From positions 57,727 to 121,726 of the forward strand of contig CAZXWO010000001.1 of the NCBI GenBank assembly GCA_964644565.1: DNA of 64,000 bases. The letters are read 5' to 3'. The notes below the pieces were generated by a model. It saw only the letters and a list, made by a program, of their open reading frames with translations. It was not told the DNA's origin and searched no databases. This document shows positions 13,609-48,122 of this stretch, one piece after another. This DNA comes from an uncultured Thermoplasmata archaeon. Its GTDB lineage: Archaea > Thermoplasmatota > Thermoplasmata > UBA10834. Within the stretch, counting starts at the first letter, position 1; the number at the start of each line of letters is the position of its first letter. A program made the position numbers and the translations under genes.

Positions 13609-15552
13609 TCACATCATCCTGACGAACGTGGAGTTGAAGGCCGAGTTCTGGCCGTACCTCTGGACGTAGTCGGTCGTGAGGAAGTTCGCGCTCGCGCCCC
13701 CGCTCAGCTTCGGCCACAGGGCGGAGTAGGCCACGAGCACGCCGCGCGGGACCGTGTCCGACAGCTCGCACTTCACCTCCCAATCGCCCAGCTCGTTGGA
13801 CAGCGTCACCATCGAGCCGTCCTCGACCCCTTCGGCCTTCGCGTCCTTCGGGTTCACGTGGACCACGGGCTTGATGTCCTGCCACCTCTGGTGGTACTGG
13901 GACCTGATCAGGAACTTGTGGACCGGCGTGAGGAGCATGTAGGGCAGATTGCTGGTGACCTGGACGTGCGACGGGAGCCCGCCCAGACCCTCCGCCTCGG
14001 CCGCCGCCGAGTACAGCTCTATCTTCTTCGACGGGGTGGGATAGGCCCTCCTGTCCGGCACCTTCAGCCTGAGGAAGCCCTTCTTGGTGATGTCCTCGAA
14101 CCTGCCCTCGACGGACTTGTTCTTGGAGACCAGGTTCTTCGCGACCTTCTCGTCCTCCTCGAACAGCTCCTTCTGGGTCAGCCGCATCGCCGAGGCGAGG
14201 GCCCTGAAGGTGTCGCTGTTGCTCCTCGCGTCGCCGATGGGCTCGATGGCCTTCTCGTTCACGGAGAGGCAGCTGTGGAAGTACGAGGTGTTGATGTCGT
14301 AGTGCTCGAAGAAGCTCGTGGCGGGGAGGACGATGTCGGCGTAGTCCGCGGTGTCCGTCTGGAACAGGTCGTGGACCACCGTGTACATGTCCTCCCTCGA
14401 GAACCCCTTGCGCACGAGGGTCTGGTTGGGCAGGGTCGCGAGCGGGTTGGAGTTGTACACGAACATCATCTTGACCTTGCCGGACTGGAGGGTGCGCCCG
14501 ATGTCCACCATGTTGTACAGGGTCTGCTTCCTGGTCCGGAGGGACGTGCCCTCCAGGTAGTCCATGTCGAAGTCGCCCAGGTCCGTGGAGTAGAAGAAGC
14601 CCCTGTTCTCCCCTATGAGCGCGGGGAGAGTGCCGATGGCCCTGACCATCTCGCCCCCGTTCCTCTGCCTCTGCATCCCGTAGCCGATCATGATGCAGTT
14701 CGGCCTGAGGGAGACATAGTCGCCGATGAAGTCCTCGATCTGCCGGGTGGTCAGGCCGGTGAGCTTCGATATGGTGGTCATGTCGAACTTGCCGGCGACC
14801 CCTGCGAGCCTGTCGAGACCTGTGGCGTTTCGGTCCAGGAAGATCTCGTTGCACAGCCTGTTCTGGATGAGGTGGTTCATTATTCCGAGCGCGAGCGCGG
14901 AGTCCGTCGCCGGCTTGATCTGTAGGTGTATCCCTATCTCGGCCGTAGGCGTCCGCACCGGGTCTATGACATAGATTTTCGCGCCCCTCTTGGCGGCGCG
15001 CTTCAGCATCTCGAACCCGTGGGGGCTGCTCCACGCGACGTTCATGCCCCACACGACGATGAGCCTGCACTTCTCGATCTCCTCCGGCAGCATCCCGAGG
15101 TTCGACCCCCACACTATCTGCAGGGCCTTGTCGCCGGCCCGTGAGCATATCGTGTGCGAGACCCTGGATGCGCCTATGGCGTTGAAGAACCTGCTCGGGA
15201 AGTACCTCTGGACGAGGCCCATAGTGCCCGCGTAGTCGAACTGGAGTATGGACTCGGGTCCGTGCCCCTCGGAGGTCTCCTTGACCTTCAAAGCGACCTC
15301 CTTCAGGGCGTCGTTCCAGGTGATCTTCTCGAACTCGCCCGAGCCCTTCTCGCCCACCCTCCTCATCGGATGAAGGAGCCTCTGCTTTGAGTACACGTAC
15401 GGCGACAGGTTCCGGCCCTTCGGGCACAGCATGTCCCCGGTGAACGGGTGCTTGCTGTTCGGCTCAGCCCCGTGCAGGCGGCCGTCCTTGACCCTGGTCA
15501 CCATAGAACAGGTGTCGTAGCAGTCCCTCGGACAGGTGTTGAAGACGTACAG
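13609..15552 (-). CDS. Molybdopterin-dependent oxidoreductase (MopB superfamily) with N-terminal 4Fe-4S motif; probable CTG start at 15552
   Basis: CPRDCYDTC...CPKG motif, partly upstream of the track ATG at 15504; HDLFQTDTADYADIVLPA; C-terminal molybdopterin dinucleotide-binding domain. Confidence 0.9.
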   Translation of the reverse strand: MYVFNTCPRDCYDTCSMVTRVKDGRLHGAEPNSKHPFTGDMLCPKGRNLSPYVYSKQRLLHPMRRVGEKGSGEFEKITWNDALKEVALKVKETSEGHGPESILQFDYAGTMGLVQRYFPSRFFNAIGASRVSHTICSRAGDKALQIVWGSNLGMLPEEIEKCRLIVVWGMNVAWSSPHGFEMLKRAAKRGAKIYVIDPVRTPTAEIGIHLQIKPATDSALALGIMNHLIQNRLCNEIFLDRNATGLDRLAGVAGKFDMTTISKLTGLTTRQIEDFIGDYVSLRPNCIMIGYGMQRQRNGGEMVRAIGTLPALIGENRGFFYSTDLGDFDMDYLEGTSLRTRKQTLYNMVDIGRTLQSGKVKMMFVYNSNPLATLPNQTLVRKGFSREDMYTVVHDLFQTDTADYADIVLPATSFFEHYDINTSYFHSCLSVNEKAIEPIGDARSNSDTFRALASAMRLTQKELFEEDEKVAKNLVSKNKSVEGRFEDITKKGFLRLKVPDRRAYPTPSKKIELYSAAAEAEGLGGLPSHVQVTSNLPYMLLTPVHKFLIRSQYHQRWQDIKPVVHVNPKDAKAEGVEDGSMVTLSNELGDWEVKCELSDTVPRGVLVAYSALWPKLSGGASANFLTTDYVQRYGQNSAFNSTFVRMM

Positions 15553-32950: not shown

Positions 32951-33844
32951 TCAGTCGAACCCGCCGAGGGTCATCTGGTCCTGTATGACCACGTCCCTGG
33001 CCTCGTGGGGGATTCCCAGGATGTCCATCATCTGGAACGCGTTCCTGACCGCCTTCGACCTGCCGTGGTTGTTGAAATATATCCTGGCCTTCTCGCAGTT
33101 GGAGACCATCTCGCCCAGGCGCTGCTCCCACTCGGAGAGCTGCTCGTGTGTGTAGAGGTAGTCGTAACGGTTGAGCCTGTAGTCGTCCTCGGCCTCGTCC
33201 TTGTACCAGATGTCGTAGTTGCGCCCGTGGAACCTTACGTAGGCGTGCTTGGCGGTCAGGGAGCGCGTTATCGGGAAGCCGGGGCCGTCGACGATCGTGT
33301 TGGCCACCTTGAACTCCTGCAGCACCTCGATCGCGTCCGACGCCAGCTCGTTTCCCTTCTCGTTGAGCCAGGACCTGTGCCTGAACTCCACGGCGTAGTC
33401 GTACTTGTCGGTGCCGAGCATCTGGAACAGCGCCCTGAGCTTGCCAAGGCTCTCCCGCCCCTCGAGCCTGAAGTAGGGGGACATCTGTATCAGGACGCCC
33501 CCCAGGAGGCCGGCCTCGGCGAGAGGCGTCACGCAGATGGCCTCGAAGCTGGACGCCTGGGCCGCGGCGGTATCGGGGGAGTCCTTCAGTATCGAGTCGT
33601 GGGTGACTATCTGCGGGAGCTTGACGGAGAACTCGAAGCCGAGCCTCTGCCGGCCCTTCTCGATCCACGATTTGACCATGAACTCGTTGGGGACCCGGTA
33701 GAAGGTGGAGTTGATCTCGACCGTGGGGAAGTACTTGGAGTAGTATGCGAACCAGTCCCCCTTCCGGTTCGCCAGCTCCGTCGGGTAGAAGCGCCCTACC
33801 CAGTCGTCGTAAGACCACCCCGAGCAGCCGACGAGTGCGGCCAT
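32951..33844 (-). CDS. DUF72 family protein
   Basis: VGCSGWSYDDW, TVEINSTFY, FSVKLP, YAVEFRH, YVRFHGRN, YFNNH. Confidence 0.93.
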   Translation of the reverse strand: MAALVGCSGWSYDDWVGRFYPTELANRKGDWFAYYSKYFPTVEINSTFYRVPNEFMVKSWIEKGRQRLGFEFSVKLPQIVTHDSILKDSPDTAAAQASSFEAICVTPLAEAGLLGGVLIQMSPYFRLEGRESLGKLRALFQMLGTDKYDYAVEFRHRSWLNEKGNELASDAIEVLQEFKVANTIVDGPGFPITRSLTAKHAYVRFHGRNYDIWYKDEAEDDYRLNRYDYLYTHEQLSEWEQRLGEMVSNCEKARIYFNNHGRSKAVRNAFQMMDILGIPHEARDVVIQDQMTLGGFD

Positions 33845-33895
33845 CGACGTTTATAGATGACTTAAGGCTATAAAAATGATTGCGAGGCCCCATCG

Positions 33896-34163
33896 GGCAT
33901 GCCAGCGGCCCCGCGCCAGTGCGCCCGGGCGGCCGGTCCGAGGGGGCAAACCGATATATCCCAGGAGCCTCGTAACCATACACTGCCTGGAAACAAAATG
34001 CTGCGGACCCGATGATGCAGTGTTCCGACACCAGGCGACAGTGCGCCATGAATGGGTCCCTCTATGAACCACCGGTGTGACACCGAGGCGTGTGTAGGGG
34101 ACAACGTGGCGTGCGACAAAACCCCCCAGGAGGGTCAGGGCGGCGAGAGTGCTTGAGCATGCC
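33896..34163 (+). ncRNA. Candidate ~270-nt structured ncRNA of unknown family
   Basis: Closing helix GGCATGC/GCATGCC, at least eight internal helices, a 6-bp pseudoknot and A-rich joiners; fills a gap with no credible ORF. Confidence 0.55.
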
Positions 34164-34176
34164 ATGAACCGCGCTG

Positions 34177-34884
34177 TTACACCTGGGGGACACCCTTCTG
34201 CGTCCGCTTCGGCCTGGCGAGCCTCGAGAGCCACGCCTCGGCGTCGTCGTACATGGAGAACTCCTTCTCCCTCTCCCTGAACTCCTTCGTGTGGTGCAGC
34301 CTGCGGGTCGGGGTCCCCTTCGGGTCGAGCACGCCGTGGAGGAGCTCGTGGTAGACGACGAACTCCAGGACGTACCTCGGGACCTTCTCCGAGTCGAGCG
34401 CGCGGTTGGCGGCCAGGATGTCCAGGGGTTCGAAGTAGAAGCCCAGCCTCACGGACGGCGACTCCTTCGCCCAGGCGAGGTCCGGGCGCCTTATGGAGCC
34501 GTTGAAGTAGCACGAGTTGACGTAGTCGAAGACGGCGCCGAGGTCGCGGCACGCACCCACCGGCCTGAAGGACAGGTTCCTGGCCCTGCTGACGTAGACG
34601 CCCTTCTTGGGCGCCCACATCTCCCGAGAGCGCGCGTGGTCCAGGTACCTCTCGGCCATCCCCTCCGGGCACCTCTTCCCGTAGACGCGGCAGAGGAGGT
34701 ACCAGGCGAGAGCCTCGGTCACCGGCCCCGGGGAGGCGTCCATGTAGTCGCTGATGCGGAAGGAGAGGGTGCTCCGCCTCTTCCGCCAGGTATGCTTCAG
34801 CTCGCTGTAGGGGTGGTACTCGGCGGAGACCCGGTCGGCTGAGAGCTGCTTCCCGACCTGCCTGAAGACGCCCTCTAGGTCCAC
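34177..34884 (-). CDS. SprT-like / M48-type zinc metalloprotease domain protein
   Basis: VVYHELLH (HExxH) plus HHTKEFRERE; FDYVNSCYFNG resembles the SprT N-terminal motif. Confidence 0.82.
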   Translation of the reverse strand: MDLEGVFRQVGKQLSADRVSAEYHPYSELKHTWRKRRSTLSFRISDYMDASPGPVTEALAWYLLCRVYGKRCPEGMAERYLDHARSREMWAPKKGVYVSRARNLSFRPVGACRDLGAVFDYVNSCYFNGSIRRPDLAWAKESPSVRLGFYFEPLDILAANRALDSEKVPRYVLEFVVYHELLHGVLDPKGTPTRRLHHTKEFREREKEFSMYDDAEAWLSRLARPKRTQKGVPQV

Positions 34885-48045: not shown

Positions 48046-48122
48046 GCGGCCGTAGTGTAGACTGGTTATCACTTTAGCTTGCCAAGCTAAAAACTCGGGT
48101 TCAAATCCCGACGGCCGCACCA
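48046..48122 (+). tRNA. tRNA-Gly (GCC), encoded CCA, no intron
   Basis: Acceptor GCGGCCG/CGGCCGC, anticodon arm TTAGC-TTGCCAA-GCTAA, T arm TCGGG-TTCAAAT-CCCGA, 3' ACCA. Confidence 0.98.

What the first reader, a model, noticed from the sequence alone, without database searches (positions are those of the whole stretch)
33896..34163. Unannotated ~270-nt pseudoknotted RNA candidate
Seen: closing helix GGCATGC (33896-902) / GCATGCC (34157-63); CGGCC/GGCCG; CGAGG/CCTCG; CACTG-CCTGG (33981-90) / CCAGG-CGA-CAGTG (34031-43); GCTGC/GCAGT whose loop GGACCC (34005-10) can pair with GGGTCC (34054-59) as a pseudoknot; CGCCATG/CGTGGCG; CTCTA/TAGGG; CGGTG/CACCG; A-rich joiners (CAAAC, AAACAAAA, ACAAAA); and TATA-like elements at 33850-33876. 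It lacks the RNase P GAGGAAAGUCC, SRP helix-8, group I R/S and group II domain V hallmarks. Inference: a new or strongly diverged ribozyme-like or scaffold RNA beside the repair cluster.
Basis: partly seen in the sequence, partly recalled or inferred. Interest (0 to 1): 0.7.

Follow-up and report, generated by a model that had tools for sequence, protein, structure and literature searches.

The report
Three-hairpin H/ACA pseudouridylation guide RNA
The candidate is a real, expressed small RNA, but it is an ordinary archaeal box H/ACA guide RNA with three hairpins that direct pseudouridine formation in 23S rRNA; standard annotation misses it because the Rfam model was built from distant species.

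Summary
Window ~33984-34192 (+) encodes a three-hairpin box H/ACA guide sRNA. It is a diverged relative of Pab40/HgcG/Pf7/Afu4, in an uncultured Thermoplasmata MAG.

- **Rfam:** the only hit is HgcG, at 28 bits against a threshold of 77.
- **Anatomy:** each hairpin has a lower stem, an internal-loop pocket, an upper stem and an ACA box 14-15 nt below the pocket top. Hairpins 1 and 3 carry a K-loop and a K-turn.
- **Covariation:** in 27 homologues 91.6% of pair cells are paired and 21 of 53 pairs show compensatory changes (0/500 shuffles).
- **Targets:** hairpin 3's pocket matches 23S helix 69 (E. coli U1915, possibly also U1917; 0/300 shuffles). Hairpin 2 matches the A loop (U2555; 11/300). 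Hairpin 1 has no clear target.
- **Expression:** six metatranscriptomes hold only this stretch, not the flanking genes.
- **Machinery:** Cbf5 is in the genome. RNase P and SRP RNAs lie elsewhere.
- **Spread:** a model of hairpin 3 finds one match, rarely two, in 204 of 301 genomes of the class.

That stretch holds the sRNA's own BRE/TATA and a variable spacer.

Verdict: a new member of a known kind, of modest interest.

The parts
33942..33960 (+). Promoter of the sRNA: purine-rich BRE-like GGGGGCAAAC followed by TATA box GATATATC (33953-33960), about 24-30 nt upstream of hairpin 1
   Evidence: GGRAA(A/G)NNATATATC is conserved at the same distance in nearly all family relatives, while the sequence around it varies. 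The Rfam HgcG model also has an unstructured TATA-containing 5' part (model 1-57). The transcription start is inferred, not mapped.
33984..34040 (+). Hairpin 1. Lower stem 33984-90/34031-37; pocket 33991-97 (AAACAAA) and 34024-30 (UCCGACA); upper stem 33998-34004/34017-23; K-loop with sheared G34006.A34015 and A34007.G34014; ACA box 34038-40, 14 nt below the pocket top
   Evidence: Compensatory changes in lower and upper stems (helices 1-2). The 3' pocket strand UUCCGAC is nearly invariant in genera g1-g3 and family f2. No convincing rRNA target (211/300 shuffles).
34041..34118 (+). Hairpin 2. Lower stem 34041-50/34105-14; pocket 34051-58 (AAUGGGUC) and 34101-04 (ACAA); upper stem 34059-64/34095-100; apical stem 34073-77/34081-85; ACA box 34116-18, 15 nt below the pocket top
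   Evidence: Helices 3-5 covary. Pocket residues UGGG and ACAA are invariant in 27 sequences. The best 23S target in three relatives is the A loop, GGGGUUGU[U]CGCCCAUU (5+7 bp). The K-turn position has G.U instead of G.A in this family; it is a canonical GA in L028 and L029.
34123..34192 (+). Hairpin 3. Lower stem 34123-30/34182-89; pocket 34131-36 (AGGGUC) and 34176-80 (GUUAC); upper stem 34137-43/34169-75; K-turn (C34144-G-A34146 opposite bulge C34163-A-U then G34166-A-A34168); C-stem 34149-52/34157-60; ACA box 34190-92, 14 nt below the pocket top. This is a '10/5/9' fold
   Evidence: Helices 6-8 covary. The guide pairs with helix 69 of 23S, GGGGGUAAC[U]AUGACCCUCUU, as the single best site (score 36 against the next 26; 0/300 shuffles). 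A model of this hairpin alone finds one match, rarely two, in 204 of 301 class genomes.
33998..34203 (.). Stretch recovered as stand-alone short contigs in six metatranscriptome runs
   Evidence: contigs 34020-34203, 34031-34187, 34020-34188, 34008-34148, 34008-34152 and 33998-34139 at 95-100% identity, with almost nothing on the flanking genes. DNA metagenomes X6 and X12 also cover the flanking genes (X6 across the whole 901-nt stretch). Contigs carry no strand information.
33881..33941 (.). GC-rich variable spacer between the DUF72 promoter and the sRNA promoter; not part of the RNA as far as the evidence goes
Evidence: Variable in sequence and length even among same-genus relatives, and only about 20 nt long in genus g4. 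No metatranscriptome contig lies here. Small conserved islands (GTGCCAG, GCGCCAGT) are unexplained.
33849..33880 (.). Conserved pair of TATA-like elements (TTTATAGA ... GCTATAAAAATGATTG). The second, read on the minus strand, sits about 30 nt upstream of the DUF72 ATG (33844), so it is the likely promoter of a leaderless DUF72 mRNA
   Evidence: Conserved across genera g1-g4. DUF72 ORF 32951-33844(-) is confirmed by Pfam. The promoter role is inferred from spacing.

Best explanation
Window ~33984-34192 (+) is a box H/ACA guide sRNA made of three tandem guide hairpins, transcribed from its own BRE/TATA promoter at 33942-33960.

Inferred mechanism, by homology with the characterised P. abyssi, A. 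fulgidus and H. volcanii RNPs: each hairpin assembles with Cbf5, Nop10, Gar1 and L7Ae. L7Ae would bind the K-loop or K-turn, and Cbf5 the lower stem plus ACA box. The two strands of the internal loop would pair with 23S rRNA on either side of an unpaired U-N, placing that uridine in the Cbf5 active site for isomerisation to pseudouridine.

- Hairpin 3 guides the helix 69 uridine equivalent to E. coli U1915, possibly also U1917.
- Hairpin 2 most likely guides the A-loop uridine equivalent to E. coli U2555.
- Hairpin 1 is structurally intact but its substrate is unresolved.

Shown here: structure, conservation, guide-target complementarity, expression, and presence of Cbf5.
Inferred: RNP assembly and actual pseudouridine formation.
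For: - **Rfam:** the only hit in the region is HgcG/Pab40. It covers the whole structured part of the model (48-276), with E = 6.8e-6 in the local search. Relatives score 25-55 bits on the same model.
- **Covariation:** for the hand-drawn three-hairpin structure, 91.6% of cells are paired and 21 of 53 pairs change on both sides. No shuffle of 500 matches this, and slid controls give 30-49%. Frequent G.U pairs fit only the + strand.
- **Spacing:** ACA boxes lie 14, 15 and 14 nt below the pocket tops. Hairpins 1 and 3 have a 10-pair 'GA stem' with sheared G.A/A.G (sequence). This matches the 10/5/9 rule of PMC4652768.
- **Targets:** hairpin 3 matches helix 69 with 5+10 bp, the unique best site in 23S+16S of three relatives (0/300 shuffles). 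This is the same target as Pab40 motif 3 (U2016), Afu4.3 and the M. jannaschii homologue. Hairpin 2 matches the A loop with 5+7 bp and is the top hit in three 23S sequences (11/300). By my offset calculation this corresponds to P. abyssi position 2647, the site proposed for Afu4 motif 2.
- **Expression:** six metatranscriptome runs hold only this stretch.
- **Machinery:** Cbf5 is present in the genome at 382.6 bits. Nop10 is present in 24 of 25 relatives.
- **Spread:** a hairpin-3 model finds one match, rarely two, in 204 of 301 genomes of the class.
Against: - The Rfam score is far below the gathering threshold (28 against 77 bits).
- Hairpin 1 has no rRNA target better than shuffled guides.
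- Hairpin 2's K-turn position carries G.U instead of a sheared G.A in this family, so L7Ae binding there is uncertain.
- The MAG has no rRNA genes, so targets were read on relatives' rRNA.
- Nop10 was not found in this 81%-complete assembly. Gar1 and L7Ae were not searched.
- RNA contigs give neither strand nor true ends, and none reaches the first 14 nt of hairpin 1.
- No pseudouridine mapping exists for this lineage.
Confidence: 0.93

Rival explanations
1. One reading: one ~270-nt RNA (33896-34163) closed by GGCAUGC/GCAUGCC, with a GGACCC/GGGUCC pseudoknot, acting as a new ribozyme-like or scaffold RNA.
For: All the complementary segments exist. The pseudoknot pairing survives in 75% of cells, mostly through wobble pairs.
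Against: - The closing helix and both upstream helices are paired in only 48-66% of cells in the eight closest relatives, equal to shuffles.
- GCAUGCC 34157-63 is the C-stem and bulge of hairpin 3's K-turn.
- GGACCC is the K-loop of hairpin 1, and GGGUCC is the rRNA guide of hairpin 2.
- The 5' third is not conserved beyond the closest relatives, contains the sRNA's own TATA box, and is absent from metatranscriptome contigs.
- RNase P and SRP RNAs are elsewhere in the genome.
Confidence: 0.02
2. The H/ACA RNA is made as a longer precursor from the plus-strand TATA-like element at 33851-58 (start near 33880). The GC-rich spacer 33881-33941 would then be a transcribed 5' leader or a fourth, lineage-specific structured module.
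For: - The TTTATAGA element and the ATGATTG stretch about 25 nt downstream are conserved across four genera.
- Many close relatives can form a local hairpin ending in the conserved GUGCC (GGCAC...GUGCC in L006, L007, L009, L010).
- The MFE fold of the window pairs 33880-88 with 33967-75.
Against: - The spacer varies in sequence and length, and is nearly absent in genus g4.
- A separate BRE/TATA lies directly upstream of hairpin 1 in nearly all relatives.
- No ACA or K-turn motif is present there.
- No RNA contig covers it.
- The conserved TATA pair is explained by the divergent DUF72 promoter.
Confidence: 0.06
3. The conservation reflects something other than a guide RNA, for example a cis-regulatory element of the convergent HExxH (SprT-like) gene or a protein-binding DNA site.
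For: The RNA's 3' end overlaps the last codons and stop codon of the convergent ORF (34177-34884, -).
Against: - Compensatory base-pair changes.
- ACA and K-turn geometry.
- Specific rRNA complementarity.
- Stand-alone transcript contigs.
- Conservation across the class irrespective of neighbouring genes.
Confidence: 0.01

Closest known systems
Pab40 / HgcG (Rfam RF00064) / Pf7 / Pho40 of Pyrococcus, and the T. kodakarensis homologue
   Same: - Three tandem H/ACA motifs in one ~210-230-nt RNA with its own promoter.
- Motif 3 guides the helix 69 pseudouridine (P. abyssi U2016; PMC2377435).
- Motif 2 is the irregular one, with a large or branched apical part and a doubtful K-turn.
- It is the only Rfam family that matches.
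   Different: - The score is 28 bits against a gathering score of 77, and no genome of this family reaches the threshold.
- Hairpin 1's guide does not fit the site equivalent to P. abyssi U2588.
- Hairpin 2 fits the A loop (P. abyssi 2647 equivalent), not U1932.
- The host is a high-GC, uncultured Thermoplasmata lineage found in sediment and soil metagenomes, not a hyperthermophilic Thermococcales.
Afu4 of Archaeoglobus fulgidus (three-motif H/ACA sRNA)
   Same: Three motifs. Motif 3 targets helix 69 (L1970). Motif 2 was proposed to target A. fulgidus 2601, which is P. abyssi 2647. By my offset calculation that is the A-loop site hairpin 2 matches here.
   Different: PMC2377435 doubts the Afu4 motif 2 assignment on its structural rules.
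Haloferax volcanii sR-h45, stem-loop 2 (PMC7075261); eukaryotic snR191 / U19
   Same: These guide the universally conserved helix 69 pseudouridines (E. coli 1915/1917 equivalents). If the A34137-U34175 pair is kept, the target here would expose UAU between the two duplexes, so hairpin 3 might modify both uridines as SL2 does.
   Different: sR-h45 has two stem-loops separated by a 56-nt linker. Its other stem-loop guides Psi2605, a different site. Dual modification here is inference only.

Membership tests
Archaeal box H/ACA guide sRNA | Hairpin(s) with lower stem, large internal loop (pseudouridylation pocket) and upper stem | tested here: met
   Three such hairpins; 91.6% of cells paired; 21 of 53 pairs with compensatory changes; 0/500 shuffles.
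Archaeal box H/ACA guide sRNA | ACA (ANA) box immediately 3' of each hairpin, 14-16 nt from the top of the pocket | tested here: met
   ACA at 34038-40, 34116-18 and 34190-92, which is 14, 15 and 14 nt below the pocket tops. All three are conserved in genera g1-g3. The first is lost in g4.
Archaeal box H/ACA guide sRNA | K-turn or K-loop (L7Ae site) closing a ~10-pair 'GA stem' above the pocket | tested here: inconclusive
   Met by sequence for hairpin 1 (K-loop GGA...UGAU) and hairpin 3 (K-turn CGA / CAU-GAA), each with a 10-pair GA stem. Hairpin 2 has G.U where G.A is expected in this family, while L028 and L029 have a canonical GA. L7Ae binding was not testable.
Archaeal box H/ACA guide sRNA | Bipartite pocket complementarity to rRNA flanking an unpaired U-N | tested here: met
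   Hairpin 3: helix 69, 5+10 bp, 0/300 shuffles. Hairpin 2: A loop, 5+7 bp, 11/300. Hairpin 1: not met, 211/300. The rRNAs came from relatives G003, G004 and G018.
Archaeal box H/ACA guide sRNA | H/ACA RNP proteins encoded in the genome (Cbf5, Nop10, Gar1, L7Ae) | tested here: inconclusive
   Cbf5 is present at 382.6 bits against a cut-off of 238. Nop10 is absent from this 81%-complete MAG but present in 24 of 25 relatives. Gar1 and L7Ae were not searched.
Archaeal box H/ACA guide sRNA | Expressed as a small stable RNA | tested here: met
   Stand-alone contigs of 80-186 nt in six metatranscriptome runs, almost without the flanking genes. Strand and exact ends are not shown.
Archaeal box H/ACA guide sRNA | Pseudouridine actually formed at the predicted sites | not testable with these tools
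   Needs CMC or nanopore mapping, or in vitro reconstitution.
Rfam RF00064 HgcG (Pab40) | Covariance-model score at or above the gathering threshold (77 bits) | tested here: not met
   28.1 bits in the window; 25-55 bits in relatives. It is homologous in architecture, but outside the curated family as it stands.
Rfam RF00064 HgcG (Pab40) | Same three targets as Pab40 (23S U2588, U1932, U2016 in P. abyssi numbering) | tested here: inconclusive
   Motif 3 has the same target, helix 69. Motif 2 fits the Afu4-type site (P. abyssi 2647 equivalent) instead of 1932. Motif 1 does not fit the 2588-equivalent sequence GGCUUGC[U]ACUUCG.
   No match here. RNase P RNA is at C5:71646-71961 (187.7 bits) and SRP RNA at C38:4485-4795 (154.8 bits).

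The most novel reading that the evidence does not exclude
Hairpin 1 keeps every H/ACA hallmark and a nearly invariant 3' pocket strand (UUCCGAC) across three genera and a second family. Yet it has lost the Pab40-type target and has no canonical rRNA site.

Its only exact match, CCGAC with GUCGG, abuts the peptidyl-transferase-centre UU. By my offset calculation this corresponds to P. abyssi Psi2603, a residue that Cbf5 makes without a guide in Pyrococcus. Hairpin 1 could therefore be a lineage-specific guide (with a non-canonical 5' duplex) for a site that is guide-independent elsewhere, or it could act on a non-rRNA substrate.
Probability: 0.15. Interest if true: 0.45.

Novelty: new member of a known kind. 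Interest (0 to 1): 0.25.

Why it matters
The practical value is for annotation. The curated HgcG model, seeded from Pyrococcus, misses this RNA throughout Thermoplasmata. In that class a helix 69 guide hairpin is present in about two thirds of sampled genomes.

The alignment here could extend the Rfam family. It would allow prediction of rRNA pseudouridylation sites (helix 69 and the A loop) in uncultured archaea. It does not open a new kind of RNA biology.

Tried and rejected
- **Rfam:** the gathering-threshold scan of the whole window found only a tRNA.
- **Thermodynamics:** single-sequence folding gave no signal on either strand.
the closing helix, upstream helices and pseudoknot were tested on alignments and rejected.
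- **Own rRNA:** searches for 23S and 16S in the MAG found none, so relatives' rRNAs were used.
- **Hairpin 1 target:** strict, flexible and duplex-based scans of 16S and 23S gave nothing better than shuffled guides. The Pab40 motif 1 site (U2588 equivalent) does not fit. The GUCGG-UU-CUUCC site at the peptidyl-transferase centre fits only 5 bp on the 3' side plus a displaced GGAA(G), so it stays speculative.
- **Organism:** I first assumed Thermococcales. This was refuted by record titles naming Thermoplasmata MAGs, and no family genome reaches the HgcG threshold.
- **Second HgcG hit:** the weak match in the genome (C18:21342-21614, 15.6 bits) does not look like an H/ACA RNA by eye.
- **Neighbouring ORFs:** Pfam and NCBIfam gave no family for the convergent 235-aa ORF or the next 364-aa ORF.
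- **Literature:** a search for H/ACA RNAs in Thermoplasma found nothing specific.

Full report
**The observation**

The 296-nt stretch does not fold better than dinucleotide shuffles on either strand (z = -0.55 and +0.33). Thermodynamics alone therefore says nothing.

A gathering-threshold Rfam scan of the window finds only a tRNA at 48046-48119. A permissive scan of 33700-34350 gives a single match: window 33975-34197 (+) to RF00064 HgcG (Pab40). This is an archaeal H/ACA sRNA, and the match scores 28.1 bits (gathering score 77, E = 6.8e-6 for that small search), covering model positions 48-276. Model positions 1-57 are unstructured and carry the Pyrococcus promoter. The match therefore spans the whole structured RNA.

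**Organism and homologues**

The window is C1:57727-121726 of a 1.78-Mb, 94-contig, 81%-complete assembly. Loci encoding close relatives of the adjacent DUF72 protein all come from uncultured Thermoplasmata or Thermoplasmatota MAGs from sediment, soil and groundwater. The host is therefore not a Thermococcales.

BLAST of 33870-34200 against 40 relatives hits 27 genomes. The part 33977-34199 is conserved across the family and into a second family and beyond. The part 33870-33976 aligns only in the seven closest same-genus genomes. Relatives also hit HgcG at 25-55 bits, and none reaches 77.

**Anatomy**

The 27-sequence alignment shows three tandem hairpins. Each has a lower stem, a large internal loop, an upper stem and a 3' ACA.

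| Feature | Hairpin 1 | Hairpin 2 | Hairpin 3 |
|---|---|---|---|
| Lower stem | 33984-90 / 34031-37 | 34041-50 / 34105-14 | 34123-30 / 34182-89 |
| Upper stem | 33998-34004 / 34017-23 | 34059-64 / 34095-100 | 34137-43 / 34169-75 |
| Apical stem | none | 34073-77 / 34081-85 | C-stem 34149-52 / 34157-60 |
| L7Ae motif | K-loop, G34006.A34015 and A34007.G34014 | G.U where G.A is expected | K-turn, CGA 34144-46 opposite CAU-GAA 34163-68 |
| ACA box | 34038-40 | 34116-18 | 34190-92 |
| Pocket top to ACA | 14 nt | 15 nt | 14 nt |

Hairpins 1 and 3 have exactly ten positions in the 'GA stem'. This fits the 10/5/9 productive-fold rule of Toffano-Nioche et al. (PMC4652768).

On this structure, 91.6% of 1389 cells are standard pairs and 21 of 53 pairs change on both sides. 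No shuffle of 500 reaches the observed values, and slid controls give 30-49%. Many positions are G.U or U.G in most sequences, which only pair on the + strand.

Hairpin 2's K-turn position reads UGAA / GUGUG in this family, so it has G.U where a sheared G.A is expected. More distant homologues (L028, L029) have a canonical GA. This mirrors what Muller et al. report for Pab40 motif 2, whose K-turn carries a substitution and whose fold is ambiguous (PMC2377435).

**Targets**

The MAG has no 23S or 16S rRNA. I used the rRNAs of relatives G003 (89% identical to the window across this locus), G004 and G018.

- **Hairpin 3.** Under H/ACA geometry, its pocket has one outstanding site in 23S+16S: GGGGGUAAC[U]AUGACCCUCUU in helix 69. 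The pairing is 5 bp to GUUAC and 10 bp to AGGAGGGUCA. The score is 36 against 26 for the next-best site, and no shuffled guide of 300 does as well. The uridine corresponds to E. coli U1915. This is the target shown for Pab40 motif 3 (U2016) and proposed for Afu4.3 and the M. jannaschii homologue. If the first upper-stem pair is kept, the target exposes UAU. Both helix 69 uridines might then be modified, as in H. volcanii sR-h45 SL2 (PMC7075261). That is inference.
- **Hairpin 2.** Its best site in all three 23S sequences is the A loop, GGGGUUGU[U]CGCCCAUU. The pairing is ACAAC with GUUGU and AAUGGGU with GCCCAUU, and 11 of 300 shuffles do as well. My alignment to the E. coli sequence, written from memory, places this uridine at U2555. 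By an offset of about 50 nt it corresponds to P. abyssi 2647, the position equivalent to the site proposed for Afu4 motif 2. The pocket residues UGGG and ACAA are invariant in all 27 sequences. In genus g4 the wobble U becomes C, which pairs with the same target G.
- **Hairpin 1.** No site is better than chance (211/300). Its nearly invariant UUCCGAC pairs exactly only with GUCGG next to the peptidyl-transferase-centre UU. The 5' pocket strand varies among relatives. I leave its substrate open.

**Expression**

Six metatranscriptome runs from several studies contain near-identical stand-alone contigs. These cover 34020-34203, 34031-34187, 34020-34188, 34008-34148, 34008-34152 and 33998-34139. 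There is almost nothing on the DUF72 or HExxH genes. Two DNA metagenomes from another study also cover the flanking genes, one of them across the whole 901-nt stretch. One loose end carries a strain variant of hairpin 1's 5' strand, so hairpin 1 is transcribed. Contigs give no strand and no true ends.

**What lies upstream**

GGGGGCAAACCGATATATCC (33942-33961) is a BRE/TATA. It is conserved in nearly all relatives, with its TATA box 24-30 nt upstream of hairpin 1.

Positions 33849-33880 hold a conserved pair of TATA-like elements. The one at 33870-79, read on the minus strand, lies about 30 nt from the DUF72 ATG and fits a leaderless promoter.

The GC-rich stretch between them (33881-33941) varies in sequence and length, and shrinks to about 20 nt in genus g4. 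That is no better than shuffles. The pseudoknot joins hairpin 1's K-loop to hairpin 2's guide and shows one compensatory change. Its covariation is no better than shuffles.

**Context checks**

- Cbf5 is encoded in the genome.
- Nop10 is missing from this incomplete assembly but present in 24 of 25 relatives.
- RNase P RNA and SRP RNA are elsewhere in the genome.
- A covariance model of hairpin 3 alone finds one match, rarely two, in 204 of 301 genomes and 59 of 88 genera of the class.

**Verdict**

This is a real, conserved, expressed RNA of a known kind: a three-hairpin box H/ACA pseudouridylation guide related to Pab40 and Afu4. Annotation misses it because the Rfam seed is confined to Pyrococcus.

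Noticed in passing
window 34177-34195: The stop codon (TAA, complement of 34177-79) and last six codons (...KGVPQV*) of the convergent 235-aa ORF lie antisense inside hairpin 3's 3' guide, lower stem and ACA box. The ORF (34177-34884, -) has a YHELLH metalloprotease-like motif and no Pfam or NCBIfam hit. The same bases are therefore constrained by the guide RNA and by a protein C-terminus.
   Followed up: partly
window 33849-33880: TTTATAGATGACTTAAGGCTATAAAAATGATTG is a quasi-symmetric pair of TATA-like elements, conserved across four genera next to the DUF72 start. It may be a bidirectional or leaderless promoter arrangement.
   Followed up: partly
window 33897-33921: There are small conserved islands, (G/A)TGCCAG and GCGCCAGT, about 10 nt apart inside an otherwise variable GC-rich spacer. 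Several relatives can form a local hairpin GGCAC...GUGCC just before the first island. Function unknown; it may be a protein-binding site.
   Followed up: no
L023-L027 (genus g4), aligned to window 33984-34040: In genus g4 the first hairpin is replaced by an unrelated hairpin without an ACA box (AGC or AGU instead). Hairpins 2 and 3 are kept. So the first motif has turned over or been lost within the family.
   Followed up: no
L030-L033 (23S rRNA of G004, G006, G018, G003): The 23S rRNA matches span 2931, 3185, 3185 and 3626 nt, which suggests insertions or introns of about 250 and 700 nt in some relatives. All four carry CUUCGCCGUCGGUUCUUCC at the peptidyl-transferase centre, where E. coli has CACCUCGAUGUCGGCUCAUC.
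   Followed up: no
G029:C65:12542-12619 and 14178-14324: In one genome of another family of the class, the helix 69 guide hairpin lies about 1.6 kb from the Nop10 gene on the same contig.
   Followed up: no
G000 (whole assembly): The MAG lacks 16S rRNA, 23S rRNA and Nop10. This is consistent with its 81% completeness, so absences in this assembly should not be over-read.
   Followed up: yes
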